Assembly (NCBI RefSeq): GCF_964355755.1
Contig: NC_092673.1
Coordinates: 29,137,648 to 29,201,647 of the forward strand
Source of the DNA: Antedon mediterranea
Lineage: Eukaryota > Animalia > Echinodermata
Direction: 5' to 3'
DNA: 64,000 nucleotides
Shown here one piece after another: positions 1 to 53,279 of this stretch. Position 1 is the stretch's first letter, and each line of letters starts with the position of its first letter. The position numbers and the translations under genes were made by a program. Under the pieces are notes generated by a model, which did no database searches, was not told where the DNA came from, and worked only from the letters and a program-made list of their open reading frames with translations.

Positions 1-1165
1 TGAAAGCAATAAGTATTTTTAATTTGAATATTTGAGCTGGCTATGACTAGCTTATACTTGGTAGTGGTTATGCCGATAATGTTTATAAAAATCTTTAAAA
101 AAATTTAAATTTTACTATGTATATATAGCAATATTAAATGAATAAAGCTCTAAACTAGTAATAAAACTAGTTTGATAGTGTAGATAGAGCTTAACCAGTC
201 CGTTTAATGATTCATTTTATTTATAAAAAAATATTCTTAGTCATTATAGTATACTGCAATTATAAATTATGAAAACAATAAAAGTTCTGGAAGACCACTT
301 GTTATTTAAACATGGTTTTTGCTTTGTTGTTTTATCGTCTTAATTATGCCAAGCAAACAAATTTTCATTTTAAAGTGGACCAATAAAATTTCTTGAATCT
401 TGAAAAATCGAAATTGGCAAACAGAAATTTCGTTTTTACTCATAATAATAATGAATTATTTATAAAAATGCTATTTTTGTATTCAAGGATATTTGTATAT
501 TGATTAGAAGGAATTAAGTATGTAATCAAATTGGCTGAATAGAAGCAAGGCTCGGCCTTGGATTTATCTATTACACATTCAAATGTAAACATCAATATAT
601 CAAAACTTTAAAATATTAAAATATCAATATTGATGCTGTATGCTTTCAGCAACATCATATTGTTATGAATTTCTGCTAGGAGACAAACATTCATTAGGCA
701 TTAAAAAAATAAAAAATGCAATATTTAAATAGAAAAATAAAAAAGATGAGTTTGAAATGAAACAGAAAAACAGACAACACAAACCATGTCAGTAGAGCTG
801 TACATATATGAGCAAGAATTAAAGAGGTATCTATGAAACCAAAGAGTATAAGATACACTAGACGAAAACTAATTGAACTTAAATTCAAAGCAAGGCCCCA
901 CACAACCCCACCCCCATCTTACATGAATCTTACAGTAATATTTTCAACAAATTTTGAAAAGTAGTACTAGTCGTTTTACTAGAGATTACCGCAATCCAAA
1001 CATGCCCAATCTTTGTTTTTTTCACGTTGAATTTAGATAAAAATGTGCAGAAAGCAACCGTGCAGGGTATGATTTTATGATTCCAAATCGATGGGCTAAA
1101 AGCAGCATTAGCACCTCTTTAATTTCTGCTATAATTCCTTACATACACCAGGGGTTCATACAAAC

Positions 1166-1279
1166 CTGTCTAGAGTAATTTGTTACAGGCAAGGGCGGGT
1201 ATTCACACTTTTCAATCTTCTTACACAATTTATACAAGTCCATTTTATCGCCATAAAATGGAGAGTGAAGCGCAGCCAT
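1166..1279 (-). CDS. NEK7: NEK6/7 exon 6B (duplicated alternative copy)
   Basis: tag|ATG...CAG|gtttgt, 114 nt, open frame, [38 protein letters not shown]. Confidence 0.88.
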
Positions 1280-4200
1280 CTATAGACAACAAGTAACACA
1301 ATAAGCAAAGAAGCACACAGAAAGAAAGCATAGATTAGAAACAGGAGGGCGCCCCCAGGGATGGCGGACAGGAAGGTGTACAGCCTCCAGTACTAACCTC
1401 TTCAGAATAATACTCAGCTGGCAGTGGAGGATAGTCACACTGTTCAATCTTTTTGCATAAAGAATAAAGATTCATCTTATCCCCATAAAATGGAGATTGC
1501 AATGCTGCCATCTATAGGACATGAATGTTGAGAAAATAAACACAAACAGGTAATCATTGTGACATCACTCAATTATTAATTCACTGTTTATTATAAAAGC
1601 TGAGCTGATTGATAATATAATTGAATTCAAAAACTGGCTGTCAGGAAATTAGTTTTCCTGTAATATGAAAGGACAGAATAATTACTCTGTAAAAACACTC
1701 TGATTACATTTTCATTTCGTTGATTGTGGCATCATCAATTTAACAGGAGCCTAAAAATTTCAATATTATAATTTGATTACGAGCATTAATCTCTTATTTT
1801 AAAGCAGTTTGAACGACTCCGTCTAAAGAGATCTACTACACTGAAAGTGTGATATGGTAGTGATATGACATCATGTCCTTCAGGACTCAACAAAGTGTCA
1901 CCTTAATAAGCGTGTCCTCTTGCATATAAGGGTTAGCCGTATTTCCCCTCGTTCTTTTAACATAAACGTTTCATTAAGGGTGTCCCTAAAGAAGTGGTTT
2001 TACTGTAATTCCCAAACATTCATACCTCATAGAGTAAGCATCCGACGGACCAAACATCTGATTTAAAGTTGTAGCCGGTTTCGTGAATACGTTCAGGGGA
2101 CATGTAGTAGGGTGTACCCACCAGCGAGTGAGCAGCAGTCGTCTTGGAGCTAAAGAACCGGCCTAGGCCAAGGTCACCAAGCTTTACTATCCCGCTGGCT
2201 GTTATGAATACATTGGCTGGCTTGATATCTGCAAAATACAATGTTTAGCTACTGAACAACAAATATATATATATATTATTTATGCCAGTAGCTTGAATAA
2301 TGAATCATGCATTTATTTCAAGATTTTTAAGTTGATGGACATAATTTTGAATGTCAATATTTATGGACGATAATGAATGAACGATTGATTTGTATTGTAT
2401 TAAAATTTGCTTTCTACAGAGACAACTACTTTCATAGCCCTAAGGTTTATCATGTTGAGCTGCCATTAAGAGTGCTTATATTCATCTGACAGGGCCTGAG
2501 ATATGTGGTAGACCTCTACTCTTCCAAAAGTTGCACATAGTTTATTTAAAGTGCCCTGAACCAGATGTGTACACTGGACCTCCACTTTTTAGGTCCTTAA
2601 TCAAGAAGACTCATTCTCCTAACAACTGGTTGAAGAGAACGTAAACCTGTGCCGATTTTATTGCTCTTGAATCAATATTTACATGTAATTTATCAACAAT
2701 TGTGATCATTAATATTCAAGTAGTAATCCTGTATTATGTAAACCAAACATACAGTACTGCATTTCTTCTTCTAGCGCAAACACTTCGTAGTTTAAATTTA
2801 AACGAGAACCACTTAAACTGGAGTTTACTTGCTACCACTTCAGTGGTTTAAGACAAAATTACAGACTTAAGTTAGTAATGTTTACTGTACTACTTACAGT
2901 AGTTGATTATTTAATCAATGCATCCACTAAATTACTGTAATCGTCCAAACTCTACTGAAGGATACAGTAGCATACTAATGGTTTTGTTTGTAGATAATTA
3001 TACTTTACATTAAATTCAAAACCTTAGCAATTGCTTTAAATGCAAAACACTGCAGAATGAGCATTTCTTTGCATTTGATACTAAATTATGATTTTTTTAC
3101 AGACGTTTCTTGTCTTATTACTGTAATTAAAACAAATATTTCTGAGAAATAAAAGAATCAAAGACTATCTAATAAAAATAATTCTAAAATGATCTAAATT
3201 CTGCAGCATAAAATTGACTACAAAGCATATGCTATATAATTTGATTTACAATAGAGTTTTCTCTATTTTTGTTGCTGTATGTTGCATAGCAACATGACAA
3301 AATAATTTCTTTCCGACCTATAAAAAATACTATTTATACTTTTGCTATATAAACAGTAGACAGTGTGTATCTATTAAGTAGCCATCTTTTGCTCAATTTC
3401 TAAATTGATCAAATAAAATACGACATTAGTATCGATAGCAACAAAGTTCAATTTCATTACAAAATGATACACATGCATTTTAGAAGATATTAGCACACTA
3501 ACTGTCAACAATGCCATTAAGACGGAAATGAAATAATCAATGTAAAGGGAGGATGAATAAAGTACAAATTTGGTTTTTGAAAAGAACGGTGAATCCACAC
3601 CACTTATTTATTTAGCGCCCATTAAAAACAATCGGAATAATATTGGACTTTCTATAACCAGACGGGTCAGCTTAAGGGTGTGCGGTATTAATAGGTCATT
3701 GTATTTACAAGTGTAACCAACCAACTAATCCTAATATATTTTCAGTTCTAAAAATATATGTGGTTATCGTAAAGTATTTTAGTAAACAAAAAGAATTAAA
3801 TGAAGTGAAGGGTAGCGATTGATGGTAATATAATGCTTTAATCCGGCTTTTATACTATAATATCCTCTTTACCTTTTAATATGTCAATGAAAATTAAAGC
3901 ACCATTCACAGGAATTTGTGGTTACCAGGAAATGGTGTTATTGACAGAAAGAGGATACAAAAACAGGGAAAAACCTACAATAATACCAAAATCTATAATC
4001 TTTTAATAAAAGCATTAAAGCAAGCCAGAAATAAAGATAATACAGCATTTATTTCTTTTCTGATATTTACTAACCAAGATAATTACATTTTAAAGGCCAG
4101 GTGCGGGCAAAAAATTTCTATTTATCATACATTCCAATAATTATCGATCTATAGTTTCCCCTATGTTTCATAATTTTTGGGATTTTATTTGTGTTACACG

Positions 4201-7200
4201 AGTTTGTTGAAAATAAGCACTTTCTTATCAGTGGGGGGATAGTTCAAATTACACAGTAAAATCTCTATTCTTTTGTACACAAATTTTGTAAATAGAGAGG
4301 CATTTTAAAAAGCTATGAAAAATAAACGGTGTGGTAAAAAATGTTATCAGATGACTAAATATAGGTAATATAACTTGAATATTACATTTCTGATTGTTAT
4401 TCAACTTCAGATTTTTATTTTCATGCTATGGCAAAAATTATCCACCGTATATCCACCATCTTTTTTCACCGTCTAGGGAGTCACCAGACATGTTATTACA
4501 TTAGGTTAACTACCTAACTACTGAAAAAAAGTCTTTCTGGTTTTTATGGAAAATTCTGCCAAATTTTGTATTTGACCATATTAAGGGAAATTCATGTTTT
4601 TTCATCTCGATTTCTGTTACAAATATTTGATTTATGTACAATTAACCAAATATTATATTTAAATTCATGCCTGTACCTGAGCTTTAAGGCTTGATGATGT
4701 AAAAGAATACAGAAGTGTACTGTACTTTTACAAATTTCAAATACAAAAAAAAGGGGGATTTCCGGTGGGATGGATAGGAAGTGTTTTATGTGGGTTGAAT
4801 GGGTATGGCTAATGCACAGTTGTACACTACATGATTCAATCACTTTTATGGTGGTGCGATGGGTTTTCTGGTTGGGGCTTGTTTGTGTTTGCCGCAGGGT
4901 TTATCACTGAATTCATTCCCAATTAGCAAAGGTGCACTGTAGTGTAACTTATAGATTAGAATGGCTCTCTTGTTTGGCAATGCAGTGTCTGATTCTGTAA
5001 GGGTCAGTTAGAGAACAGTCTACGGAAAAAAAAAAAATAAGTATTTTACACAAAAATAAAAGTCTGTACTACCTCTATGCATGACCCGTCTTGAGTGCAT
5101 ATGCTGCAGTGCAGCTGTTAGTTGTACAAAGTATTTCCAAATAGTCTTCTCTGGAATTAAACGCTTCTGTCTTTTGAAGTGCTATCGGAAAAAAGTAAGT
5201 CATTAAATAAACAAGATAAACATTTTAAAGAATGATATTAAATGTGACCAATGACCAATTAAGTGGCAACTGTGTTTAGTGACCGCATCATTCTAAACTT
5301 TAAATATCATTGTTTTGTTTATCTATTTAAAAATAACTTCAATTTAATAAAACTATTTACTGTAGGTATTTTTACAATATTCAACTCTAACTCCAATATC
5401 AGAAATGGAAAACACTCCCAAAACTGGACTTTCTTGGAGGTCCAAAATGTCCCAAAATCATTTTTAAGAAACACATTCCGAATACCAGACTTACTAGAAA
5501 ACCAGACATATCAGCCCAGGGTGTCTGGTGTAGTATTGGGAGAGTTGACTACAATACTTTGACAGAATATAACTGTATAGAGTAGAGAGTGTGCTCAAAT
5601 TACAAAGTTTATAAAATAGCTTCTTTCATTGTACAATATGGCAAGAATGTGTGACATTGAATGTGGTATGAAACAACCTTAGAAATGCTAACAAGTAGGG
5701 TCACACAGGGTTTAATCAGGTAAAGACATGCATTGTGAACAACAATAATATTGTGTTTAGGTACATATACATACAGTACTGACTACAAATCATGTACCAT
5801 AACCCGCGTTTGTCGCGCGTGTAAAATATGTGTAATTGCCGCGTGCCTGTATTTGCCGTGTGGACCATGACGTCATCACTTTGTAGCTTTTTACTGGTAA
5901 AATATGGAACTCCCGGTACGACGCCCGCGACAACACACATGTGGATATCAGTTGTTCTAGTTTCTATTGTTTAGGCCTACCATCATATTTATGTAATCTG
6001 AACCTGCCCGTTACTGTATGTAACAAAGTTTCTTTTTCTCTATTGTTAGGCAAACAATAAATAAGAAAGTTTATAGAATTCATGTAAATTGTTTTTCATC
6101 GGGGTTTTGTTTAGAGTTCACGTCGTATTATTTTATACAGTATAATGTGAGGCGTACAGCGAGAAGTGTACAACAGCAGGGAGGCTAGGCTAGAATAGAG
6201 AGCTACTGTACCTAAGCCCCCCACAATAAAACATATTTAGCGATCTTTAATAGGTGCCTAGGTCAATAAATAGCCTAATAATAGTAATATTATAAAATGA
6301 TGTTTCCTTGTATTTTCATAACCGTAAGCCAAATATTTAAATTAAAATACAGAGCTAGTGTTTTAGGCCAAGTACATAAGGATTCCCGTACATAACTGTG
6401 AATGGGTTTTTCCGCTGCTCGGTGTAGAAAGTCAAATTATTACGTTCTTCCAACACGTTTATTAAATGTCTTTTAGTATATTTCTATCTAACATGTCTGC
6501 ATTGTATACTTGCTTTATAAATTCTCTGCTTATGAAACGACTTAATAAGTTGACGTTTAAAGCAGATATTTGTCTGACATCAGCCCATGTTTATAATGAA
6601 AACAAAACAGGGTTCCGAAAATGGCACAGTCCAAAATGAGGTGTGCAATTAAATAATATCAACGTAAACATATGCGCACGGTATCAGGGCTGTAATTATA
6701 AGAGAACTGATTTTCCCTGGACGGGAAATGGTAAAAACTTGTATTTATTCGACCTCGCTTCTCTCTCGCTCTGGCTGTGTGCGGAGGAGGATCGCTCCAA
6801 CGTGGTTTCGTGGAGCGATTAATGGTCCAGTCCGTAACAGGGGTGTATATTAGTTACCGCGCTAAATACATGCATGTCAATACTGGCGTTGTAATACTAT
6901 ATAAATTATTTCCTCCCCGACTCAATGGATGAACTCTACAACGTGGTGCGTACAGAAAGTACGTCATTCGGCCACCAGCGACGATCGTGTTTTGAAAGAT
7001 ATTGTTAATGGGTCTTTTCTACCTTGTTTTTTTTAATGAGTTTTCTCAAATACTTAATAAATATAACTTAAAAATATATATAAACAAACTCTGAAAGCAA
7101 ACTAGGCCTAGAATAGTAGTACTGTAGTGTAGTAGGCCTACTAACCTCCATGATTGCACTATGATAAATAAATCGATTTTTTATTTCAAATAGGCCTATA

Positions 7201-10200
7201 TTTTGTTATATAAAATGCTGTTATCCTGTACTGTAATTCCAGTTATTGTCTGTTTGATGATAATAATATATGAACAAAACATCAACAAGTTATAAATGCA
7301 GTTCGCTGCAGTTGAATTACTCAATGCAGTAATGCATGAGTGAATATGGACAGTATTGTTAGTACCTAATTACACGCGAGTCACGCGTTTTTCACACCCG
7401 TGTAAAATGTGTGGGCTTGGTATATGATATGTAGTCAGTACTGTAGTAACTATAACATTTCTATGGGTTGTACTGTCATGGAGAATGATCACACTAAATT
7501 GTAAAGGCCTATTATCAATACTGTGCAGCGGTTAAGGCAGGGGCGCCGTTTACCGTACCTAAAGAGCCAACAACATCGGCAAGGGTTCGAGGCCGACTCG
7601 CTCCTAGTTCTGATAGTGGAACAAAGTCTTCTTGGATAAGGACTATAAACCGTAGGTCCAGTGTACACATACATCTTACAATTATTAAATTGCCAATAGT
7701 TTTCTCTATTTGAATATTTAGCTGTGCAAAAATATAAATAACATAGAATCAATATGTTGAATAATTAATTGAATAATTAAATGTTAAAGCTAAAAACCTA
7801 AAGACATCGTTGAGGAATAATTAGTGCTGATTTCTATTTTTATTTTATTTTTGAAGTGTGAATATTTAAATGGAGTGTGAATACTGTATCTAAATGAAGT
7901 CTGAATATCCAATCTGAGTGTCAATATCCAATCTGAGTGTCAATATTTTCAATTGAAGTGTGAATATCCAATCTGATTGTGAATATCCAATCCGAGTGTC
8001 AATATCAAATCTGAGTGTCAATATCCAATTGAAGTGTGAATATCTATTTAGAGTGTCTTTATCCAATTTGAACTTTAAACTAAAAATGAACCTGATAAAC
8101 TGTAATTGACATCAATGAAGTTGAAAGAAAATGTCAATTTAAAAAATCCAATTTCAATAATTCCGTGAGTCCTGATAATATTCATAGTTTGATCAAACCA
8201 TAAATAATATCTAATGGCAAGTTTTAACAATCCATTTGATAAATATTGTAATTTAATCAGGATGCATAATTAATAAATATTGCAATGTTTTTCATGTCAT
8301 CAGTTTACTGATAATGGCTGTGTGCAAGACACAACCAATAATTATGAAGCAGAATAAGGCAAACACCAATGAAATACAGGTGTGACCAAATTGTAATTGG
8401 AGTCATTGTGAGCATGTTGCTTACACTATAGTAAGTAGTATGAGGAGAAAGGTCTTTCACTTTCACAGTAATTAATTTGAAGTGTAATATTATCAGTAGA
8501 AAATTAAGGTGTGACCAAATTGTAATTGGAGTCAGCGTGAGGAACTACCACAACATAGCATGTTGCTTACACTATAGTAAGTAGTATGAGGAGAAAGGTC
8601 TTATTACCGAACACTTTCACAGTAATTAATTTGAAGTGTAATATTAATGTACTAGTAATATTATCAGTAGAAAATTGAGGTGTGACCAAATTGTAATTGG
8701 AGTCAGCGTGAGGAACTGTCACAACATAGCATGTTGCTTACACTATAGTAAGTAGTATGAGTAGAGAGTTTACCGAACAAAGTTTTATTCTATTATCATA
8801 GAAAATTGAGGTGTGACAAAATTCTAATGAAGGAACTAACAACAAAAAATATTGCTTACACCTTACCAGTATAAAGACAGAGGCCTTGAAATCAGCCATC
8901 AGATCTTATTATTACCGAACACTTTCACTTAACTGAGTTGAAGTGTACTTGTTCAGTAGGAAATTGACAGGAATTAATCTATTGTAAGTAGGATAAAGCA
9001 GCCAGGCAATGATAGCGCTTTAAATTAACGTGCATTGTACAGTTGTTTACATCTTTTAATTTAGCTAAATTGGTAGGCAGCTGAAAATAAGTTGAAATCC
9101 TGCTTTTGATTTCAAAGACATGATAATCTATGTTTAAACCCAGATTTACAGAAAGCTAAGCTGGGAAATAATTTCTTGAGCCAATGACCCTGTTGATTGT
9201 TTGTTTAGGACTCCATTATTTACCCTGTAAACAACTGATTGGTTTCCATTATAATAACAGAAGGGCCCAGCCGTTTTAGGACTCCATTATTGACATTGTC
9301 AAAAGTGTTTTCCATTATCCCAGAAAGGCCCAATTAGGACTACATTATTGACTCAGTACAACAATTGTTGGATTTTACAACTCTTGCCCAATACTACTAG
9401 TACTGTGCATGTCCAACAAAGGATAGCCTACGTTTACTCTACATCGTTGGTTTGCTTTTATTCTCATGTGGATTCAACTCTTGCCTATTAACAGTAATAC
9501 AGTACATGTCCAACAAACAGTAGCCTAACAATAAACAATATTTACTTTTTAAAAATGAATAAGACTAGAGGTGAAACTTGATATTCTAAAGGATTTCAAA
9601 GTTTTCATTTCGGATGAAAAATCACCCGAGAGATTGTTTGACACAAGAGCATATCATTATAATATCCATAATTTGCAGAACAACTTTGCTTGATGAATAA
9701 ATTACGAAGGATTTGTGAATTATTTCTCATAATTACTTCTTCTTACCTTTATCATACGAGCCAAATCGCCAGCATCAGCAAGTTCTAACACAATGTTTAA
9801 TTCATTATTTTGGATGAAGGACGCAAGGTACTTAATGACGTTTGGATGGTTCAATTGCTAAAAAGACAAAATAAAGATTATTAGGAGCATTCAGAAAAAG
9901 TATAAAGCTCTGTCTACACAGGGAGTTGTAAAATTATTATTTTACAACTCCCTGGTCTACACTATAAAACTAGTTTGACTAAAAAGTGTAATGTGCACAA
10001 ATATGGTAGTGATATTCCCAAATATGGTAGTTATATGACATCATCATGTCCATATATGGGCACATTACAATTTTTTCACTTGGGCCAACGTAAACAACAT
10101 TGTGGCGCATCAACTTAATGAATCGGCTTACTACACAAGGCTCAATTTGAAAACGGTTCCCTGAGGGATGATATGAGATCACAGCTTAACAAGATACAAA

Positions 10201-13200
10201 GACACAGATTACTGCTACTGTGACCAGAGGCTGCAGCACTCAATTTATGCAATATTACTTAAAGTTCACACTAAGTTTCTTACGTCTTTACTTAGTGTAA
10301 ATTAAATTTTAAAAATGGAGGATAAGATTAAGAAGGAATCATCATCCACATTCTATTAATAGACTATCAGAGTTAAGACCCATTCACACGAGGATGATAA
10401 CGATCGACAACAAATAAACACATTTCTCACATACAGTAAGGAAAGAAATTAGAAAGGTTTTCGTTCTGGAATTACCGTACTGACGCGGGTATAAGCCCAT
10501 ACTCGGGTATAAGCCCACCCCCGACTTTTGACTAATTTTCATGAAAAATGAGGAACTCGGGTATAAGCCCACCCATTAATTTCTTTGGTACATTTCTATT
10601 TAACGAACATTGTATACTTGCTTTTCTGCTTGATAAATTCTTGTTAAATTGATGTTTAAAATAAGATATTCTACGATAAATTACACGAACTAATTTTCCG
10701 ACACTCTACACCTCGTGTATTTAGAGGCAACGTCGTACACGTGAGGGCGCTCACTCGCATGGTGGAATACACAGTGTACATGTGCTGTTTTTGACGATCT
10801 GCATTTTTGGATCCTCGGGTATAAGCCCACCCCCCAAACTTGACGTGATTTCATGTTCGAGGGGGGTGGGCTTATACCCGCGTCAGTACGGTATACGATA
10901 ATAATTTATACTTTCTTTGATAATAATAACATTTTTAAAAATCCAATCAAATGATGTCATGATAAATAAAATCTTTGCATTGTCACGATATTATTACTCT
11001 TACTAATCATGACGTCATTTGATTGGACGTAAGGAAGCATAGATGGTTATCCTAGATAAAAACTTTTTAGACTTTTTATGTTTGAAAACCTGGACCATTG
11101 ATCGTTAAATTGTCCTTAGTGTAACTGGGCATTTATAAGAATAAATTGACTTCCAACTGATTAAAAATGGTATTTGAAAATATTTACATAAAATAAACAC
11201 TTGCCAAACTACTGTACATAGGCATTAATAATATTAAATATAGTATTAGTATAAAGAGAAATCTTCTTTTTGATATATATTATTATTTCTTTTCTGCAAA
11301 GGGTCTTATGACTACAGACATTACAATTACAGATCCCTGCAATACTAACAATGTAATACAGTTAATATATTGCTGAATAAATGTGAATAATAATTAATTG
11401 GTAATCAGATGGTTGATACAAATATACTGCCAGTAGTGTTATATACATTGGGAGCAATTATACCATTGTAAACATTGGTAGTGAATTTACAGTATATACT
11501 GTACTGATGTCAGGGAGATACCTCCTTAGTAATACATTGCAATACTGTGTAGATAATGAATAATTAATGAACACTGGCTTAATACATCTATTACAGTATT
11601 ATTTGCTGAAGAAAATCAATCAACTAATTGTTTACTGACCAGTGAGTAAATCCATAAATTAAACAGATTAATTCAAAAAATTTTCGATAAAATTCAAGAG
11701 CCATCTAGATTCGACGTGCTTTATTTCAATTTCTTTGTATGCAATTTGATGTACAGTATTTTTCTTTTTTGTTTTATCGTCTTAATTATGCCAAGTAAAA
11801 CCAATTTCAATTTTATAAAGGTGGACCAATAAAATTTCTTGGAATCTTGAATTTCATTAATGTTTTTTAACCATTTTCAATCAAACAAGTTTTTAATTAA
11901 TTTATTCATTATTCTCTCAATAATATTCAGCTCTTTTATTTGACATTCAAGGTTTTAGAGTTCAAATTATTATACCAATAAAGCAATAGGCCTGTCATCG
12001 TAAAATGATACCATAATATGGAAAGCATACAGTACATTGTAGGCCTGTCATAAATTGAATTACCAATATAAAATGGAAAGCACAGACTGGTCATAAAATT
12101 ACTTATCATTTTTAATAATGTAACATATTGTGCACACACAATAATAGTATCGTCGTCATTAAATACTGAATTATATATATTATTAAAAATGTAATTTTTA
12201 TAAAGGAGACATTAAAAACAATGAGTATCAATGGTTCACTAACCAACTCGTACATAATTGAAAATATTTTGTACAAAATACATCAAAAATATTAAAAATA
12301 CAAAAAACTAATGAACATTTTGAATACTGAAATCAATTTGCAATTTTCAAATTATTTAAAAAATTTGCTTTACCGAATAAATACATAATTGAATAACATT
12401 TTTTACTTGTTGATGTACAGTATTGTACTCCAAAAACAAAAAAATTTATAAAATAAGACTTTAAATAGGTTATGTTGTAGTGTAGTGTTAATCACTTCTG
12501 TAGAAAAAAAAATTTGACTATTTTTGCTTTAAATTACATTTTTTCAGGTAAAAAAATAAAAATTTTTCGATCAGGTTTTTTGTCAAAATGAATATGCAAC
12601 ATTAAAATGGCATGTTCAACAAAAATTGTTTTCAAATTTATTTTTTCAGGGGGACAACATATCTTTAAACATTTTAATTTAAAAAAAAAACCACAAAAGA
12701 AAATTGTCAAAACTGACTTACCTTTAATAAATCTATTTCTTTTATACAATCTTGTCTGGCTTTGGCATCCATCATTTCAAATATCTTAAAATCAAGAAAT
12801 ATGGTTTATGATAAAATGTAATCAATATTTACTACAGATTGATTCACATGTCAAAGGTCAATGATATAAGATGGAGATCTGATATTGTATTTTATTGGAT
12901 ATGTATACCTGTGTTCTTTGTCAAACACACTTAAAATAACATGTTAAAAACTAACATAACAGACTCACTTTATACAGAATTAACATAATGTTTTAATATA
13001 ACATTTTATCTTTAAAAAATGTGTATGGCTGTATTAAAAGCAACATTTTGCTACTAATTACTAACTGTGAAACGTACCAATTTCAAGTAAAATGGTTAAA
13101 ATAACACACAAACCATGTACAGTAGTACTTTATAATACCACAATAGTTCATTCATTTCATTTTTTTTATGTCAGTATGGTTTGGTTTTTAAATATTTTTT

Positions 13201-13925
13201 TATGCAAATAGTAAGTAACTTTAAAGGTATCAACATAATGTTTTTTAATCCTTGAATTAAATCCTAAAACATTTAATTTTGAAAAGTAATTAGTGATATT
13301 GGTCACTGAACATTGAAAAGATAAAATATAAAAATCAAAACAAATTGAATTTTATTGCAGTACAAAGAAAAGGTAAGATAAGAAACAAGCTGCTAAATAT
13401 CAATATCAACAGAAATTTTGCAGCATAAAAAATCTTCTTTTTTTTTTCAATTCTTAAAGTACACTATTAATAAATTAATTGTTTAAACATTTAAACAAAT
13501 TTCACTGTATTGTTGTAATAAGTATCTACAGTTGAATACAATAACTCTCCCACTCAAAACCAGATTTTTCTTGAGATTCAAAATGTCAAAAATTCATTTT
13601 AACCAAAAAAATCTCATTCTGAATACAAGAAAACCAGACATATTACACCAGCACAAGGGTGTCTGGTATTTTGGGAAAGTTGACTGTAAGTGTAATATTA
13701 ACATTTAGTACTACTTATTTGAACAAATCGCCTAAAATTGATTGATTAAAACAATGTACTCACTTGGACTTTTTTGAGTGCAATGATGGAGTTATCTATG
13801 ACTGACTTTGCTCTGTAAACTTCACTAAATTGACCTTTTCCAATCTTCTTCTCTATCACAAAATTATCAAGATGAGAATAGTGATCTTCTGTCGTAGCGA
13901 TCTCGGAGCATTGCACACCTTCCAT
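1166..13925 (-). CDS. NEK7: NEK6/NEK7 serine/threonine kinase, 3'-incomplete (last exon lies left of the window)
   Basis: GT-AG exons with consistent phase: 13925-13764 (MEGVQC...[12 protein letters not shown]...ALKKVQ), 12784-12722 ([21 protein letters not shown]), 9857-9747 ([14 protein letters not shown]...[13 protein letters not shown]), 5181-5073 ([18 protein letters not shown]...MHR), 2228-2026 (DIKPANVF...[28 protein letters not shown]...LLYE), then 1511-1398 or 1279-1166. The DLG motif and activation loop are typical of NEK6/7; NEK6 versus NEK7 cannot be resolved. Confidence 0.95.
1398..1511 (-). CDS. NEK7: NEK6/7 exon 6A (canonical-type copy)
   Basis: tag|ATG...GAG|gttagt, 114 nt, [38 protein letters not shown]. 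Confidence 0.93.
2440..2640 (-). mobile_element. Degenerate Deu-domain SINE fragment
   Basis: Similar to 55121-55433 (tttaaagtgc...agatgtgtacactggacct...gaagactc). Confidence 0.55.
5774..7443. mobile_element. Non-autonomous Tc1/mariner-type DNA transposon, about 1.67 kb
   Basis: TIR cagtactgactacaaatcatgtacca / tggtatatgatatgtagtcagtactg (24 of 26 match), TA on both flanks, no transposase ORF seen. Confidence 0.8.
7523..7670 (+). mobile_element. tRNA-derived Deu-domain SINE fragment
   Basis: gcagcggttaagg...gggttcgagg (A/B box-like) followed by ggataaggactataaaccgtaggtccagtgtacacat. Confidence 0.65.
7852..8070. repeat. Approx. 20-bp minisatellite (gagtgtcaatatccaatct-like)
   Basis: About 10 degenerate tandem units visible. 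Confidence 0.8.
8378..8860. repeat. Degenerate tandem repeat of approx. 130-170 bp units
   Basis: aggtgtgaccaaattgtaattggagtca...agcatgttgcttacactatagtaagtagtatgag recurs 3-4 times. Confidence 0.75.
9906..10075. mobile_element. Tourist/PIF-like MITE (agctctgtctacactatc family), truncated, with internal palindromic footprint
   Basis: Family terminus plus 21-bp internal repeats (aaatatggtagtgatat); other copies near 20110-20241, 27370-27505, 35815-35967, 37785-37923, 38870-38990, 39941-40062, 47613-47884 and 58585-58650. Confidence 0.75.
10475..10891. mobile_element. Tc1/mariner-type MITE
   Basis: Perfect TIR ccgtactgacgcgggtataagccca, TA on both flanks, internal ctcgggtataagcccac repeats. 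Confidence 0.88.
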
Positions 13926-24936: not shown

Positions 24937-27900
24937 ATGCAGAAGGTCGTGCTAATAACTGGAGCAAATTCGTAAGTAAAAACGGTTTATTTTAACAGTA
25001 TGCATGCATAAATTACAGATACAAACTTCTAGGCCAAGGTGCTCTAGCCCAACCAAGCATGGATTATGATTTGTTTGGCATGCTATACGTCTGATGTTGA
25101 GGCCAAGTAATGCATGTTGGCTAGGTACCGGTTAATGTGTTTTTTTGTTATCCGTGAAAATTTGATGTGGCGTTTTCAGACAGGATAGTAGGTATTGTCA
25201 ACACACCCCCACCCCATCCATCCCCCGCCCCCTTCCCCTTCACACACCACCTAACCCGAGAATCACATATCAAAAAAGCCAAACGAACACACTGTACTGT
25301 ATGCACACACACATGGCATGGTGTGATTGCAATGGTACGATTATTATCAGTATTCTATTGTGTAAATATTTAATTCACTCTACAATGCAATGCCTGTCTG
25401 ATATATATTAATGGTATACTTCCAATAGAATGAGTGCATTTTTCTTTAAATATTAACGCACAGTTGATAGATTATAGGATAAAATGATTACAAACATTTA
25501 AAAACATTTTTTTCTCTTGAAGTGGGGTTGGCTTTAGTGTGGCTGATCGTTTGCTAGAAATTGAGCCATCTTTAACGATATGCCTAGCCTGTAGAAATCT
25601 TGCAAGGGCACAAGTGGCTAGAAGTGAATTATTAGCCAAACATGGCAGCAAGTGTACAATTGATGTTCAATCAGTTGACACAAGTGACCTGAAATCCGTC
25701 TACAAAGCTGCTGAGGAAATTAAGCAAAGGTACAAGTTTATAATGATGAAAAAGTATCACAATTAATCCCTAGAAAACAACTTTTTTGAGAATTTGCCCA
25801 CCCCAAACATGTTCCCCCTCCCTAAATTCCTAACCTTATTCAACACTGTTTCTGCTAAAGTGCCTTTTTCAAACTATAGACTAGAGTTATAATTGATTCC
25901 TCATGACAATTATTCACCCTTTTGTGGGAAAAAATAATCCTCCATATATAATCCTGTCCCCACCTATACTTATCCTCCTTTTTGTGCGCTGTCCGTAGAC
26001 AACAGTGACTTATTAGGTCTGGCGATTACTATAGTAATATTAAAATATTATTTTTATTTATTATATTTCAGATATAAATGTTTGAATTACCTGTATCTGA
26101 ATGCTGGCATCATGCCAGTGTCCACTATCAACTGGAAGGGCTTTCTAAAAGGACTTTTTTCAGTGTAAGCTTTTCATTTCTAAAAAAAAAGATAATAAAT
26201 TGAATTACATCGTAAAACCAAGACAATCTAACAACAGGATGTTAAACTCGGAGATCAACGGGTTTATCTGTCGCCGCAGAGAACATGTACATAGTACAGT
26301 ACCGTGTTGGTATTTGTCGCAGCCAGACATAAGATGAAAGGACTGTTACGAGTTCCTACTATCTTGGCAAGGCGAGCTCAGTGCCCTGTTGTTAAATTGC
26401 GATGGTAAAAACTGATATATAATTCCATAAAATTTATATAACACAATGACAGTAAAATTTAGATACTTTTCATGGATGTATTGAATGCACAAATAATATT
26501 GAAATACCATTTTTTTTTCTCACAATATCTTTAGGAGACGAGTGATTGAAATGTTTAGCACTGGTGAAGGATTACTTAGTGTGAAAGACCATAGCACAGA
26601 TGACGGTCTGAAAGCAATCTTTACAACTAACATATTTGGACATTTTGTATTGGTAACCTAAAGCTGGTCTGTTTATCTATGAAAATAGTTGGGTACTTTG
26701 ATCTGTAAGGGTGTCCTGTCAGTGGAGGACCCAGGGCCTAAAAATGGGGAAATGAATGGCTGACCTTAATTTGATGTCCTATCCTTTGCATGACATTTTA
26801 CAAAATTTAGGGGCCCTAAGATCCGCCCCTGCCTGTGTCCAGATGGTCACAACTCGTTTTAACCTTTGATAAATGTAATTATTTGTCACTATCTATAAAG
26901 TAGATACAGTATACTGTATCCCAACCACACACTTTGAATGAAAACACACAACTGCCTACAAAAGTACTAGAATTTGATTTGAGTTTCTCAGATGCTAAAA
27001 TAAATCACAGTTTTATTTTAATCTGGTGGCTATGACTTACAGTTTGTCTCCAAACTCATTTTGGCCTCCTTCTGCAATTTTTTTAACTAATGTAATTTTG
27101 TTCTTTCATTATAAATGTGTCTGTATAGAGAAACAATAAAAACAAACAGTTCAGATGAGAATATCAGATAGAATGACAAGATAGTATTTTAAAACATGTT
27201 ATTTTTGTAAATAGGTGCTTGCCTTAAAGGATTTGTTAGTCAACTCTAAGACGCACATCATTTGGACATCTTCCAGTAACGCACGCAGGTCACATTTTAA
27301 CATTAATGATGTTCAACATGAACAAGGGTATTTATTTACCTTATTTGTTTACTGCAGTAACACTCCGAGAACACTATAAAACTTCATGTGAAAAAAATGT
27401 GCCCATATATGGACATGATGATGTCATATCACTACAAAATTTGTGCATATCACTACCAAATTTGGGCACATCACACTTTTTTTTGTCAAACTAGTTTGAT
27501 AGTGTAGTGTTTTTGCATTACCTGTATTGAGGAGGTCATTTTATCTATGTTTTTTTTTAATTGAGGTGTACTGTATTTAGCAATAGTACTCAATATTTAT
27601 TTAGAGGATTTGAACATAATGCTAACAGTCAAGGCCAATTTACACAGACGATATAGAATTACAGTATATATAACCTATGTTATTCTTTGTGACCATTTAC
27701 ACACAACATGGAGCGGACGGGGTGCTTCCGTTCAGGGTAGATACAGATTCTACGCGGGACAAGCTATTCTTTTTTTTCCGCTTTCCGTTACCTCTGTGTA
27801 AATTAGTCTTTATGACAAAAATGTATTTTTTGTTTTTAGTTCCGAGCCATACAGTTCATCCAAGTATGCAATAGACTTACTAAGCCTAGCCATCAACTAT

Positions 27901-30409: not shown

Positions 30410-31861
30410 TTATATATGCAAAACAGCCTTCTCTGCAACCTGTTTACATCCGGATATTGAATAAGCAATTCCATTCTCATGATGAAAAGTAATTTCTGCG
30501 GTAATCTTTTCAACTATTTCATCCGTAATCTTATCATTCGGCAAGTGCTGTTGCAAGACGCTATACGCACACAATTTAACATGTTCTCGTTTTAACGGAA
30601 AGAATGCTAAAATTTTACTAGATTCCGGGAAATTAAAACTTTTATCAAGATTTTCAAAATCTGGGATCACATCATCAGGATCTACTTTATCTTTCGATGA
30701 TTGTAATTCTTGCCTTATAATGTCAGTCGTGTCTAAATAGCAGTTTTCGTCAGTACAGTCCCGTAGTAAAATGTGTTCTTTACCCATCATGCTAGTTAGT
30801 ATAAGTATAGTAGATTTAACGCTTGAATCGGATAATGATTTCTGTATTTTTTGTAACAAATAATCAACAAGTTGAGGAGTAAGAATGTCCGAGTTATCAA
30901 CTATAAAAAACTCAAGAGGGCATCTTGGACTAGTTTCCTGAACGAACCAATCAATAATATCACGATTGATCTGGTCTCCTCTGCCTGTGATATGAAGGCT
31001 TGTAATAAAGCTATGAACGCAAGGACTATCTAAGCCTTTCGTAAACAGATGATTGGCGGCAGCTTCTGCTAGGAACGTCTTACCAACCCCCGGTCCACCA
31101 TGAAACGACAACACAAGAGGGCGTTCATGTTTCTCACCAGTTAACTCATTTTTCAACGCTTCCTGAATAAATTGAATTGTATATTTTTGATGGAAGAAAT
31201 TCTGCTTTAAGTATTTTTTAAACCCTGTAATGTTTATCCGTACTTCATTGTGGTCGTATGGTGGAACACTATCGGTAAATAACATGGATAAGAATAACAA
31301 TGCTAGAACGGTGAAAAACAAAAAACCTATTACGTAACACTTGTCTGCTTGTTTTGTACTGGACGGCGTCTCTTTTATTTTATCATGATAGTATTCAACA
31401 TTGTTTTCGTTTTTGGCTGACTTTTTAATCTTGCCAGAGAACGTGGCCGAGCGCCTCATGGAAGGCTTCTTGGGTTTACTCGCTGAATAATGATTGGGCG
31501 TTAATGATCTTGAACGAGGTGTATCGTTTGATTGTTTACTCATTTTAGGTGATGTATCGTCAATATGGTATGTTTTATCTTTCTTTGTTTTCGTAGCAGG
31601 AGAACGCCAAGTGCTGAATTGATCTCCTGATGAAACAGCCAACGTTTCTTCACCTGGTTTGCGGTTTCGCACAAGACCTTTGCTGATTCCGGGTTCACTT
31701 ATATTCGGAATCAATGATATTTCTGTTAGTTGCTGGTTTCTGATTTGTATGCGGCCTTTACTGATCGGAATATCACAGCAGTTGCTATGATAAATCTCGA
31801 CAGATTGAACAGGTGGTGGAGTGTCCTTCCGTTTTGGATTGTATCCCATCAAAGACATCAT
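30410..31861 (-). CDS. Torsin-family AAA+ protein, torsin-4A-like, single coding exon, type II membrane topology
   Basis: 483-aa ORF: low-complexity basic N-terminus, TM CYVIGFLFFTVLALLFLSMLF, PLVLSFHGGPGVGKT (Walker A), FFPLKREHVKLC, and torsin C-terminal YSISGCKQV. Putative 5' UTR exon donor at 32290/32289. Confidence 0.88.
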   Translation of the reverse strand: MMSLMGYNPKRKDTPPPVQSVEIYHSNCCDIPISKGRIQIRNQQLTEISLIPNISEPGISKGLVRNRKPGEETLAVSSGDQFSTWRSPATKTKKDKTYHIDDTSPKMSKQSNDTPRSRSLTPNHYSASKPKKPSMRRSATFSGKIKKSAKNENNVEYYHDKIKETPSSTKQADKCYVIGFLFFTVLALLFLSMLFTDSVPPYDHNEVRINITGFKKYLKQNFFHQKYTIQFIQEALKNELTGEKHERPLVLSFHGGPGVGKTFLAEAAANHLFTKGLDSPCVHSFITSLHITGRGDQINRDIIDWFVQETSPRCPLEFFIVDNSDILTPQLVDYLLQKIQKSLSDSSVKSTILILTSMMGKEHILLRDCTDENCYLDTTDIIRQELQSSKDKVDPDDVIPDFENLDKSFNFPESSKILAFFPLKREHVKLCAYSVLQQHLPNDKITDEIVEKITAEITFHHENGIAYSISGCKQVAEKAVLHI

Positions 31862-32383
31862 CAGTTAGTCTGTTTATAAATATACAATATAGAATAATTT
31901 ATGAATAATAATTATTGTTTATGCCAAGCAAATTGGCAGTGATATTAGATTTCCACCACAGAATTGCCGTACTCCATTGTATATAACATGCTATAGTGCA
32001 GTTATTTTATTAGCATGTGACCCACAATCGTTTAATAAAATAAGAATCTACTGTCGTGTTATGTATAAAAATTTAATTAAGACAAACTGCGAATGGTACT
32101 GTACTACCGTACTACTACTGTAGTATACTACTGTATTTACTAATCAATTCAACAAATAAAATAATATTGAATGCAATGAATATAAAGATTCTATATCTAA
32201 ACAATGGTGATAAATAGTGTAAACTATATAGCTACAATTATCTACATTTGTATAGATGCACATTGCTACAAAACTGAAAATGTACTTACCCAAAAAACAG
32301 TAAACTGTTACCAAGTCTATCCTTTCTACCAAAAAACAATCATGCTTAACCTTTGAACTTTCAACTTTGACGATTCGAAAAAA

Positions 32384-35300
32384 ATGGCAGCCTCCATGTC
32401 GATGAGACCTCAGCAGTTTCCAGCTGATGTAAGTCACAATTTTCATGTATTTTTACAAGCAATTACAATGAATGTTTTGAAATGTATTACATTTCAACGG
32501 ATCACGTATGATTTAAGCTATTTGTAATGTTCTAGGTTGTAGCTAGGCCGGAGCTACCGGTGCTAGGCTAGGGCTACGGTGTTGATTGAGACTATTTATA
32601 GCGATTGAACCGTGTCCGGATCCTAGTGAGAGTCGTTTCGCCCGAGATGAAACGAGTTAGATGTTCAGAGTTCGATTTTTTTTACAGAATTTCTGATATT
32701 TTAATTTTCTTCTCAGGACATATCAAGCCATGTTAGAAGTTTTGTGAAGGGATGCAATATTCGGACTGGTCAGAAATTGACCAGTGTAGAGCATGCTCGT
32801 TGTGCCATCCAACTCCTACGAACGCTACCCTCTGCTAGAGCTGCCGTCTTTGAACACCTTTGTAATGTGTTCAATGAAAGTGTCAACACGCACCTATGTG
32901 AACTTGAGGGAGAAGGTTTATTTTATTTCTTTTTAAATTTTTTTTCTACAAAAACATGCCCTAAAAATGCTATTATTATCTATCTAAATACCATAGAAAA
33001 GAGTGTTTATTTATTTAGTTAATAAACATAAAAAAAAACTTTCTCTATCCTTTAGAAACTCTAAATGGCATGAAATAGAACACTGTCGTGTAATGGCATT
33101 GATGCGTATTATATTGTATATATATACACCCATGAATGGGCTGAGGGTGCTATAAATTGCATTTTTGAAAGTAAATAATTAATTTTAATTTTGTTTACAG
33201 CAAAAATTGGGCCATGTTTAGATGAGGCTATACATGAAGTATATTTAGTGTTGATTGACTTTGTTAATGCTAACTCAAACACATGGGCTTCTATTGTCTT
33301 TTCAGTAAGTTTAGTTTTTTATTTTATAAATACATTTAAGGTATTTTCTATGACTTTTTTTTTATCTAGATTCTTATAAAATTGACTCTTAAAATTTCTT
33401 ATCTTTTTCAGTGGTCGATTGACCTCTTAGGTCAAGTGAGTAAGAAATACGCACTACGTCGTGGTGTTCCACATTCATCAAACCTAAATGAAATTCTACA
33501 GTTGTGGATGACTTGCAAAGGTGAAGAATTGAATTACAACAAATTAACAAAAACAAGTACATTCTTACCCCACATTGTTCACCAGTAATTCCAGACACAA
33601 AGCAGCCTTTCCCCTATGCACAGGGGTAGCAATTATAGCCTTCTGGAAAATCTCCAGCCCAGTACTTCAAACACAACAATGTATCTTCAATGTTGCACAT
33701 GGTAGCATAATGAATATTATATAACACCTATATAAATTCCTGTCATTTGATTGGACGAATGTGGGTCACATGGCGTGCAATAGTACGCACTATTCAACGA
33801 TCGTTAAATAGTACTTTTTGAAACATTTTTGTGTACGAAAAAAAAACGTCTAGATGTTATATAAAACAAATAATGAATGTTTTGTATTCGTGTAATTTGC
33901 CTCGTTGATATAACCTTTCATCATTCACCTCGTGCCATTATTTGTACCATTGCACTCATAAACATTCATTATTTGTATATTATTTCCGAAACATAAATTT
34001 CACATAAGAATTACTGTAATAACCAAACATATTGAGCCTTGTATTCCAGTGTGTAGCTAAGCTAAACTACTGTACATGTCATGCATCAATGAACTCTATG
34101 TGCTTGTACTGTTCTCAGCTATTGAGCCTTGTATTCCAGTGTGTAGCTAAACTAAACTACTGTACATGTCATGCATCAATGAACTCTATGTGCTTGTACT
34201 GTTCTCAGCTATTGAGCCTTGTATTCCAGTGTGTAGCTAAACTAAACTACTGTACATGTCATGCATCAATGAACTCTATGTGCTTGTACTGTTCTCAGCT
34301 ATTGAGCCTAATTTGCATACTATTACAGATGTATATTTTTAAACAAAATGTTATTTGTATTTTAAATTGAAAGGATATTCATTTTTAAAGCTATTATTAG
34401 TGACATTGTCATCACTGGTACTTTACTATTAAAAACAAATTTACAATTTTTTATTTCTCCTCCAATTTTTGATCTCATATTTGATATTGACATTTCATAT
34501 TCATTAAATGTTATTAAATTTTTTTTTTATTGCCTATTATTTTCTATTATCTCATTACTTTAATAAAATGCAAAAAATAATGCAAACTTTTAAAATATAT
34601 TGAATTATGAAATATTGAATAATATATTCTTTCTTTATATTTGTTTTTAGCAACAAGGACCCTGATGGATTTGTCCACACAGTGTATCTCCAATATGATT
34701 GCCACCTGTCCTGATCTGTGTGTTGATGCTTTACTTGATGCGTCTGTTACACACTCCCCTCATTTTGATTGGGTTGTTGCTCATATTGGGTCAGTTTTAC
34801 AGTTGGATTTTAGATTAAAAGGTTTTAATAATAAAGATTATGTAAAAGTAGTGAAGCCATAGGTGGTTAACGTTTATTTATATATTTTTATTTATTTATG
34901 TGCTTGTAACATGCTGGCCTTCAAATCCCAAGGTCTGGGGTTCAATCCTGACCTAGTGCCAGGGTTGTAACTCACGACTCTTTCAACTCCACTCCCTAAG
35001 CCTCATGATAAATTATTAAATAGTTTAATTATTTAAAAAATATAAAAAATTTTATAAAAATTATATTTAAAAATGTAGATTTTTACGGCGTATTGGAGTG
35101 TTATACGACAGCTATGCTTGCTGGTGACTGGCTCAGTATATTTAATATTTTACTACTGTGCATTTTTATTCATTTTTTTATACGTATATCTCTTCTGTAG
35201 GTCTTGTTTTCCTAATACTATTATTACCAGGGTGTTAGCTTGTGGCCTAAAAGACTTTTGTGACACACAGTCCGAGGCCACGGCAGGAGCTGATCAGAAG

Positions 35301-52200: not shown

Positions 52201-53279
52201 TGGCTCAGAATGGATACGATAAGAGCATCCTTTTCAGATGGAAGGTCTTTTCATGTTGGGACATGAAATAAGGTTATATCCTGCGGATAAGCTATAGTGG
52301 ATATTTTATGCATTCTTATGCACATTAATAATACAATCCATTCACTGAAGTCTACATTGTCATTACATACACACTACATTGTTCTATAATTACAGTGCAG
52401 GGATATCACCAGCATGTCATGAGTGGTGGTCAAGATACTCTGCTAAACCCACGCATTTCATAATTAAAGGTCGGAAAAATGCAGTTCGTAGACAATTCTA
52501 CGATGTTCTTTGTGAGGTAACAATAGTCTTTTTCACACTGATCTGTAACCCTAACAAACAGGAATATTTACACTAATCTAAAAATTAACAAAATTTAATT
52601 GGCATTTGTTTTCATGTAAAAAAAAAAGAAATATTTCAACAGTAAAAATAGTTAAATAATTAGTGATATTTCAATTTTTCTAACTTTTAAAAGTTGCAGT
52701 TTTAATTTGGATGGTGCACACTAATTAAAAGTCTAAACAATTAATTAAGTCTTTCATCTGTCATTTTATTTATATACAGCCTGGTGTACTGTTAAATTAA
52801 TAATTTCCCCTTCTTAATAAAGCATTAATTTTTTATATTCTGAAAAAGATTTACTTACAAATTCTTCTTACCTCTCTCCATGGCCACCCCAAGTCATCAA
52901 AACATTTTCTTAAAATTTCGGCATTCGACTTCGCCTTTGATGTGTCAACAGAAATAAGTCTACCCCTAGAACGTTTCTTTTTATCTTTATTAGGACAGGG
53001 GTCAAGTGTCAATCTTGAAACTAGATGACAAGTGTCCGGCAACGGTTCACGACTACACAGGCTAAACTCGGTTGTATTTGGCAGCGAAGACGATAGCCTT
53101 TCTTCAGCCCATATCCTGTGGCTTGTCTTGCGGTATCGACCTGGTGGACCTCGGCTAGTAGTAGTAGGCCCTGGGCTCTGGCCACCACCATAACGGCGGC
53201 GTTTGGAAGAAGTTGCTCTGTCCAGTGATGTACATCTCCCTGCTCTGTCTAGCCTGTTTATGGTTACTCCAGCACACAT
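46223..53279 (-). CDS. TTLL11: Tubulin polyglutamylase TTLL11
   Basis: Exons 53279-52872, 50153-50054 (CDLYW...SGQVNKFPG), 49530-48824 (FIVKPSEGSQGDGIYLI, QEYI, KFDLRVYVL, MHLTNYSLNK), 48132-47921 (ILGFDIL...LLEVNANPS), 47259-47023, 46571-46223. Start codon choice is uncertain. Confidence 0.9.
47613..47884. mobile_element. Complete Tourist/PIF-like MITE with an expanded internal 21-bp repeat array
   Basis: TIR agctctgtctacactatcaaact / agtttgatagtatagacagagct, TTA TSD, about 7-8 units of atatcactaccatatttgg. Confidence 0.9.
50500..50765 (-). mobile_element. Deu-domain SINE copy
   Basis: Collinear with 55121-55433 (gtaaccccctactc...tgtgtacaccagacctacggtttata...tcttaaccgct). Confidence 0.7.

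What the first reader, a model, noticed from the sequence alone, without database searches (positions are those of the whole stretch)
1166..1511. Tandemly duplicated, probably mutually exclusive alphaG-region exons in NEK6/7
Seen: two 114-nt phase-0 exons 118 nt apart, each with intact AG/GT sites and an open frame (6[39 protein letters not shown]; 6[39 protein letters not shown]). They share 28 of 38 residues while many codons differ only synonymously, which suggests purifying selection on both. 6B is more basic. Known: this segment covers kinase subdomains IX-X (alphaF-alphaG), a substrate/partner docking surface; JNK alpha/beta and p38alpha isoforms swap homologous exons in the same region. 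Inference: one gene makes two NEK6/7 isoforms with different C-lobe surfaces, a splicing-level alternative to the vertebrate NEK6/NEK7 gene duplication. I know of no description of this for NEK6/7 but cannot search.
Basis: partly seen in the sequence, partly recalled or inferred. Interest (0 to 1): 0.85.

Follow-up and report, generated by a model that had tools for sequence, protein, structure and literature searches.

The report
Echinoderm NEK6/7 swappable duplicated exon
A feather-star gene for a cell-division kinase carries two old copies of one small exon, each seen spliced into RNA on its own, which likely gives two kinase versions with different partner-binding surfaces; the same pair is in public starfish and sea-urchin gene models, so it is a new example of a known trick.

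Summary
Confirmed. Two intact 114-nt exons (6A 1398-1511, 6B 1166-1279, minus strand) of a crinoid NEK6/7 gene share 28 of 38 residues, with synonymous sites saturated. Contigs of one RNA-like run join exon 5 to 6A or to 6B, and each to the same next exon. None of its 6 records there splices 6A to 6B; one retains the intron between them. NCBI models already hold the isoforms: a 6B-only form in 8 of 8 echinoderm species retrieved (crinoids, starfish, sea urchins), none in 203 non-echinoderm proteins. But 6A+6B forms are modelled in 5 of the 8, so exclusion is probably leaky. 6A is the ancestral type. 6B changes residues that contact NLRP3 in human NEK7. Corrections: 'more basic' holds for crinoids only; vertebrate NEK6 and NEK7 are both 6A-type; unlike JNK, all splice sites are U2-type. 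A predicted intronic helix looping out 6B is only a lead: it does not beat local-composition shuffles. New member of a known kind.

The parts
13764..13925 (-). NEK6/7 coding exon 1 (54 codons)
   Evidence: translation identical to residues 1-54 of P0003
12722..12784 (-). exon 2
   Evidence: identical to P0003, AG/GT sites
9747..9857 (-). exon 3
   Evidence: identical to P0003, AG/GT sites
5073..5181 (-). exon 4 (phase 1 end)
   Evidence: tblastn 100%; X1 loose end at 2230 is the end of this exon
2026..2228 (-). exon 5, common upstream exon; its donor at 2026 is joined to either 6A or 6B
   Evidence: tblastn; joints 1511-2026 and 1279-2026 with GT..AG ends in run X1
1398..1511 (-). exon 6A, ancestral-type copy (35/38 identical to human NEK7 229-266)
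   Evidence: spliced to exon 5 and to the next exon in X1; in NCBI isoform X1 (P0024)
1280..1397 (-). 118-nt intron between the copies; U2-type GT..AG; stop codon in frame after 20 codons if retained; first 60 nt 62% GC
   Evidence: retained in one X1 contig, 1252-1427
1360..1387 (-). C-rich intronic block just after the 6A donor; candidate selector arm (predicted, not shown)
   Evidence: pairs with 892-918 at -33 kcal/mol, pair probability up to 1.0 in a global fold; not significant against block shuffles
1334..1338 (-). only branch-point-like motif (CTAAT) of the 118-nt intron; branch A at 1335, +63 from the 6A donor, -56 from the 6B acceptor
   Evidence: motif scan; use not shown
1166..1279 (-). 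exon 6B, derived copy (28/38 identical to human NEK7)
   Evidence: spliced to exon 5 and to the next exon in X1; in NCBI isoform X2 (P0003)
892..918 (-). G-rich intronic block about 250 nt after the 6B donor; candidate downstream docking arm (predicted, not shown)

Best explanation
The NEK6/7 gene carries a tandem duplicate of the exon for kinase helix alphaG and its flanking loops, each copy is spliced in alone between exon 5 and the last exon, and the two resulting kinases likely differ only in a C-lobe surface that would bind partners. Shown: intact copies, either-or junctions in RNA contigs, conservation in three echinoderm classes, 6A ancestral-like and 6B derived. Inferred: one duplication in the echinoderm ancestor (favoured, not proven); 6A the main form and 6B the minor one; exclusion that is predominant but leaky, because the 118-nt middle intron is spliced poorly (it is seen retained, which adds a stop codon) while some species' models join both copies. 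How the middle intron is kept from splicing is the weakest step: my pick is RNA structure in its GC-rich first half, most likely pairing with a G-rich block downstream of 6B, which would loop 6B out and favour 6A, helped by a branch point only 63 nt from the 6A donor (about 0.3 for the long-range helix). That the swap changes partner or substrate choice is inferred from human NEK7 and JNK (about 0.55).
For: Joints 2026-1511 (depth 23.9) and 2026-1279 (depth 8) at GT..AG, and the same 28-nt next-exon end after 1398 and after 1166; read by hand, its reverse complement encodes the residues that follow exon 6 in P0003. 0 of 6 X1 records on 880-1800 splice 6A to 6B; one retains the intron (depth 7.6), and 8 + 7.6 matches the 15.7 of the 6B body. 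pS saturated, pN 0.17. 6B-only models in 8 of 8 echinoderm species retrieved, 6A-only in 6 of 8, order always A then B. The 8 B rows form one side of a branch, 91/87; D14, K24 and E26 are in 8 of 8 B copies and together in 0 of 72 distinct non-echinoderm segments. Core residues (SPFY, L18, K21, I22, P28, L30) are kept in all B copies. Exon positions 33, 37, 38 are human NEK7 D261, E265, E266, which contact NLRP3 HD2 (PMC7830601 passage); the window has E,E,E in 6A and T,R,Q in 6B, and position 33, D or E in 68 of 72 outgroup segments and 7 of 7 A copies, is non-acidic or deleted in 8 of 8 B copies. NMD (114 is a multiple of 3) and U2/U12 incompatibility are excluded by the sequence.
Against: NCBI models with both copies exist in 5 of 8 species, including the crinoid whose protein matches the window exactly (P0144, P0134, P0025, P0142, P0136, P0199); I could not see their read support. 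The RNA evidence is one run, labelled RNA only as a guess, kept as contigs that drop rare variants; junction arms are 25-30 nt, under the tool's 31-nt rule, and depths are not expression levels. The tree has 38 columns, the B branch is not starred, and separate duplication in crinoids is not rejected (p-AU 0.108); D14 alone also occurs in 2 of 72 outgroup segments and 4 of 144 further unnamed ones. Positions 37-38 vary among A copies too, and 6B charge runs in opposite directions in crinoids and eleutherozoans, so no single conserved new surface is evident. The intronic helix beats tight-window shuffles (3-42 of 2000) but not wider windows (187-946 of 2000) or block shuffles (9-19 of 120), and the middle intron alone folds no better than shuffles. 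No partner or substrate was tested.
Confidence: 0.7

Rival explanations
1. The two copies are independent cassette-like exons: besides 6A-only and 6B-only, a 6A+6B mRNA is routinely made and encodes a working kinase with a 37-38-residue insert in the C-lobe.
For: 6A+6B models in 5 of 8 species and three classes; the frame is kept; AlphaFold2 keeps the kinase fold for the 327-aa form (mean pLDDT 76, TM 0.93 to NEK7 2wqn by target length) with residues about 231-266 unresolved.
Against: 0 of 6 X1 records join 6A to 6B, the middle intron is seen retained instead; no such model was retrieved for Anneissia, Asterias amurensis or Diadema setosum; where the insert falls in the model depends on my alignment's gap placement; automated models also include intron read-through forms (P0134, P0138), so they admit rare products.
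Confidence: 0.17
2. 6B is not a second binding surface but a dose regulator or a weakly constrained relic: its main effect is to divert transcripts into the intron-retained, stop-containing form, and its protein works like 6A.
For: The retained-intron contig has about the same depth as the 5-6B junction; B copies diverge faster than A copies (mean pairwise identity 28.2 vs 34.1 of 38) and their charge is not conserved.
Against: The frame and core residues are kept in 8 of 8 B copies across three classes, with class-wide fixed changes (10-13 S/A-E-G-L and a one-residue deletion shared by starfish and urchins); pN is far below pS.
Confidence: 0.1
3. On origin only: the exon was duplicated twice, once in crinoids and once in eleutherozoans, and the shared 6B residues are convergent.
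For: Crinoid 6B keeps 38 residues and GDKM, eleutherozoan 6B has 37 and a different loop; holding crinoid A and B together is not rejected (p-AU 0.108); K24 and E26 are common single changes (30 and 16 of 72).
Against: Best tree has all B together in 100% of 200 bootstrap trees; same order A-B; D14+K24+E26 together in 0 of 72 outgroup segments; H5 shared by crinoid and urchin B.
Confidence: 0.2

Closest known systems
JNK1/2/3 (MAPK8/9/10) mutually exclusive exons 6a/6b (7a/7b)
   Same: Homologous exon pair inside the kinase domain, subdomains IX-X (PMC2694422 passage), encoding part of a substrate docking site and changing substrate choice (PMC13012108 passages).
   Different: JNK exclusion uses a U12/U2 hybrid intron (PMC1874599 passages); here all six sites around the pair are U2-type. 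Different kinase family and lineage, so an independent origin; function here is untested and exclusion looks leaky.
Tandem exon duplication-derived substitutions / homologous mutually exclusive exons (PMC8373072, PMC7954323, PMC4494069)
   Same: Equal length, same phase, adjacent, old, fold kept and variable residues at likely surface positions.
   Different: 'NEK' occurs 0 times in the main text of the three papers (supplements not opened); here both-exon models exist in several species.
Downstream docking-site/selector control of 14-3-3zeta, Mhc, MRP1 and Dscam exon 4/9 clusters (PMC6071210, PMC4691838)
   Same: Geometry: a candidate arm just after the upstream exon pairs with a block in the intron after the last variant and would loop out the downstream copy.
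   Different: One species only, no conservation or compensatory change tested, not significant against block shuffles, no second competing selector found.
NCBI automated isoforms of echinoderm 'Nek7-like' (e.g. XP_071948168/69/70, XP_033115660/62, XP_038045316/20/22, XP_072176563)
   Same: The window's exons translate letter for letter into the Antedon mediterranea models: the isoforms are already on record as predictions.
   Different: They are unlabelled X variants; I found no paper that notes the duplication, its age or its role.
Vertebrate NEK6 and NEK7 paralogues
   Same: Two versions of the same kinase subfamily in one organism.
   Different: Both paralogues carry a single 6A-type segment; they are not a partition of 6A and 6B.

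Membership tests
NEK6/7 subfamily kinase | Kinase domain with best sequence and fold matches to NEK7/NEK6, little else in the protein | tested here: met
   Pkinase E 1e-64; all 10 PDB hits of 6B are NEK7 chains; top Foldseek hits NEK7
Tandem duplicated homologous exons | Adjacent, homologous, same length and phase, intact splice sites | tested here: met
Tandem duplicated homologous exons | Both copies conserved across species under purifying selection | tested here: met
   8 species, 3 classes at protein level; pN 0.17 vs saturated pS within the window; dN/dS between orthologues not computed (no DNA of relatives)
Mutually exclusive exons | Each exon is spliced alone between the same flanking exons | tested here: met
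   four junctions in run X1; single-copy models in NCBI
Mutually exclusive exons | The two exons are not included together | tested here: inconclusive
   0 of 6 X1 records join them, but contigs drop rare forms and 5 of 8 species have both-exon models
JNK-type exclusion by spliceosome incompatibility | U12-type 5' splice site on the intron between the variants | tested here: not met
   6A donor GTTAGT, 6B donor GTTTGT, exon 5 donor GTATGA: none matches the U12 consensus (consensus recalled)
NMD-enforced exclusion | Double inclusion shifts the frame | tested here: not met
   114 nt is a multiple of 3; both-exon models are in frame
Steric exclusion | Branch point too close to the upstream donor (about 50 nt or less, recalled from alpha-tropomyosin) | tested here: inconclusive
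   only CTAAT motif is at +63; real branch point not mapped
Docking-site/selector RNA pairing | Complementary intronic arms flanking the looped-out variant | tested here: inconclusive
   -33 to -35 kcal/mol, third best of 4264 minus-strand windows for the selector, yet 9-19 of 120 block shuffles do as well
Docking-site/selector RNA pairing | Conservation and compensatory changes across species; rescue by compensatory mutation | not testable with these tools
   no echinoderm genomic DNA of relatives retrieved

The most novel reading that the evidence does not exclude
Echinoderms have, for as long as crinoids and sea urchins have been apart, switched the NLR/partner-binding patch of NEK6/7 by splicing, converging on the JNK trick in the same kinase subdomains but enforcing it with an insect-style long-range intronic RNA helix, with a leaky third, double-exon kinase as a by-product or extra isoform.
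Probability: 0.15. Interest if true: 0.65.

Novelty: new member of a known kind. Interest (0 to 1): 0.42.

Why it matters
This segment of NEK6/7 is nearly frozen from sponges to humans (6A is 35/38 identical to human NEK7), so an old, expressed variant copy is a natural experiment on what the alphaG surface does, including residues that in human NEK7 touch NLRP3. It adds a second kinase family that diversifies subdomains IX-X by exon duplication, with a different exclusion mechanism from JNK, in animals whose eggs and embryos are standard cell-cycle models (recalled). It also warns that the longest NCBI isoform in several echinoderms is the double-exon form, which may be a minor product.

Tried and rejected
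No whole genome was held, so the last exon and paralogues could not be read from DNA. The run search listed no holder on record as RNA; X1 was treated as RNA because its contigs skip introns at GT..AG and leave most intron bins empty. AlphaFold2 with a 4-sequence alignment failed (pLDDT 42); the 83-sequence job worked. Local folding of the middle intron is no better than shuffles (z 0.69; z -0.1 to 0.5). My first shuffle test of the helix used a wrong window and was redone. A weaker duplex between intron 5 and the same G-rich block (-26.6) was not followed up. The metagenome scan gave 12 loci, each with a single 6A-like segment, none B-type. The search of 50%-identity representatives listed 150 of 260 hits; among the 144 new ones none had two copies or the D14+K24+E26 signature; 10 look-ups named only a louse protein. 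No holothurian, ophiuroid or Strongylocentrotus/Lytechinus protein was retrieved, so those groups are untested, not negative. Hemichordate (2 proteins) and amphioxus (4 proteins) clusters held only the A type, which does not show absence from their DNA. The primary NLRP3-NEK7 structure paper was not held under the id I tried; I rely on a review passage. Rejected: assembly artefact, pseudo-exon, U12/U2 and NMD mechanisms, a conserved 'basic' 6B, and a 6A/6B = NEK7/NEK6 correspondence.

Full report
Observation. The minus strand holds a NEK6/7 kinase gene with exons at 13764-13925, 12722-12784, 9747-9857, 5073-5181 and 2026-2228, then two copies of the next exon, 6A (1398-1511) and 6B (1166-1279); the last exon is off the window. 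Both copies are 114 nt, phase 0, with AG and GT ends, 118 nt apart. They share 28 of 38 residues; 15 codons differ synonymously and 10 non-synonymously, pS is 0.85 (saturated) and pN 0.17. Contigs of four DNA-like runs carry both copies in one piece, so this is not an assembly error, although those runs may be the window's own source. The window's exons translate letter for letter into NCBI proteins of the feather star Antedon mediterranea.

Use in RNA. The run search listed 5 runs, none on record as RNA. Run X1, guessed to be RNA, behaves like it: its contigs join 2026 to 1511 (depth 23.9) and 2026 to 1279 (depth 8), both at GT..AG, and leave 1398 (27.6) and 1166 (15.7) into the same 28 letters (8 of 20 X1 records shown). 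Read by hand, those letters encode the residues that follow exon 6 in P0003. On 880-1800 all 6 of 6 X1 records are shown: none splices 6A to 6B; one keeps the 118-nt intron (7.6) and one covers 911-1180 of the next intron (4.9). The inflow to 6B (8 + 7.6) equals its body depth (15.7), leaving little room for a spliced 6A-6B form. Limits: one run, contigs that drop rare variants, junction arms of 25-30 nt, and depths that the tool says are no expression measure; 'about three to one for 6A' is only a hint. The retained intron puts a stop after 20 codons, which would truncate the kinase.

Relatives. NCBI models exist for 8 echinoderm species retrieved: 6B-only in 8 of 8, 6A-only in 6 of 8, and 6A+6B in 5 of 8 (Antedon, Acanthaster, Patiria, Asterias rubens, Diadema antillarum); the order is always A then B. 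Of 215 non-echinoderm NEK6/7-like proteins examined, 203 had one full segment (72 distinct), none had two, and 12 fragments had no full segment; 3 NEK10 proteins were left out. These include 2 hemichordate and 4 amphioxus proteins. No holothurian or ophiuroid protein came up. In a 38-column tree of 32 rows the 8 B copies form one side of a branch (91/87, not starred) and the 7 A copies sit among the outgroups with human NEK7 and vertebrate NEK6. D14, K24 and E26 occur in 8 of 8 B copies and together in 0 of 72 outgroup segments. Separate duplications in crinoids and eleutherozoans are not rejected (p-AU 0.108). So 6A is the ancestral type, 6B the derived one, probably from one duplication at the base of echinoderms. 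Net charge of 6B is +2 and 0 in crinoids but -3 to -5 in starfish and urchins, so 'more basic' is not the conserved feature.

What the swap would do. The exon is human NEK7 229-266. In the model it runs from the end of helix 203-219 through helix 231-239 to just before the next helix; the names alphaF, alphaG, alphaH are from my knowledge of the kinase fold. B copies keep the core residues and change positions 5, 14, 24, 26 and 32-38. Positions 33, 37, 38 are human D261, E265, E266, reported to contact the HD2 domain of NLRP3 (PMC7830601, passage of a review); the window has E,E,E in 6A and T,R,Q in 6B, and the acid at 33 is lost in 8 of 8 B copies. NLRP3 itself is vertebrate (recalled), so this shows only that the patch can bind a partner. 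In JNK the alternative exons lie in subdomains IX-X (PMC2694422 passage) and change substrate docking (PMC13012108 passages). A changed partner surface is therefore the best reading, but inferred. The double-exon protein is predicted to keep the fold with about 36 residues unresolved (pLDDT 76), a result that depends on my alignment.

How exclusion might work. Of the mechanisms listed in PMC6071210 (Introduction read), NMD fails because 114 is a multiple of 3, and spliceosome incompatibility, used by JNK (PMC1874599 passages), fails because all sites are U2-type. The middle intron's only branch-point-like motif is 63 nt from the 6A donor, and its first 60 nt are 62% GC, reached by 1 of 1135 windows upstream in the gene. 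A C-rich block at 1360-1387 pairs with a G-rich block at 892-918 (-33 to -35 kcal/mol; pair probabilities up to 1.0 in a fold of 780-1511; third best partner of 4264 minus-strand windows), looping out 6B as in the downstream-docking clusters of insects (PMC6071210 and PMC4691838 passages). Against this, the windows were chosen after the fact: tight windows give 3-42 of 2000 shuffles as good, wide ones 187-946 of 2000, and block shuffles that keep local composition 9-19 of 120. It is a lead, not a result; no relative's intron was available to test it.

Is it in print? Searches for 'mutually exclusive exon' + NEK7 (6 papers), 'mutually exclusive' + 'exon duplication' + NEK6 (0), echinoderm + 'mutually exclusive exons' + kinase + 'alternative splicing' (7), NEK6/NEK7/sea urchin/isoform/splicing (20 of 46 listed) and NEK7 + echinoderm + exon (15 of 21 listed) showed no title or abstract on this; I saw listings only. 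'NEK' occurs 0 times in the main text of three surveys of homologous exons (passages seen, supplements not opened). In the docking-site search 'echinoderm' occurred in 0 of the 20 papers listed. Subscription journals are largely not covered. The scan's own notes held nothing on this gene and two other echinoderm exon pairs.

Verdict. A real, old, expressed pair of alternative homologous exons in echinoderm NEK6/7, mostly but probably not strictly exclusive, already present as unlabelled NCBI isoforms and apparently undescribed. New member of a known kind; interest 0.42.

Noticed in passing
window 30416-31864 (-): Single long ORF of 483 aa with Torsin and TOR1A_C matches.
   Followed up: partly
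window 32705-39600 (+): Exons of Integrator subunit 5 (INTS5_N and INTS5_C matches at 32705-33019 and 35079-35402).
   Followed up: partly
window 46226-53396 (-): Tubulin-tyrosine-ligase-family gene (TTL match at 48815-49558); looks TTLL11-like by recall, and TTLL11 lies near NEK6 on human 9q33 (recalled, not checked), a possible old linkage.
   Followed up: partly
window 55866-58295 (-): Arylsulfatase-family gene with a hydrophobic C-terminal tail (Sulfatase and Sulfatase_C).
   Followed up: partly
window 1843-1920: Short dispersed repeat inside NEK intron 5, very high depth in all four runs laid.
   Followed up: no
window 911-1180: X1 contig over the intron after 6B (depth 4.9) stops at the G-rich block; Acanthaster models P0134 and P0138 also read past the 6B donor into a different C-terminus, so the 6B donor may be weak or an alternative end may exist.
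   Followed up: no
window 1329-1338 with 1006-1015: A second predicted helix covers the putative branch point of the middle intron; not tested against shuffles.
   Followed up: no
window 25521-25763 (+) and 54140-55119 (+): An exon that looks like a short-chain dehydrogenase (HSD17B7-like by recall) and retroelement-like frame fragments; neither had a Pfam match.
   Followed up: no
P0386 (unnamed, 56 aa): A segment with H5 and GDGL, partly like eleutherozoan 6B but with N14, Q24, D26; source organism unknown.
   Followed up: partly
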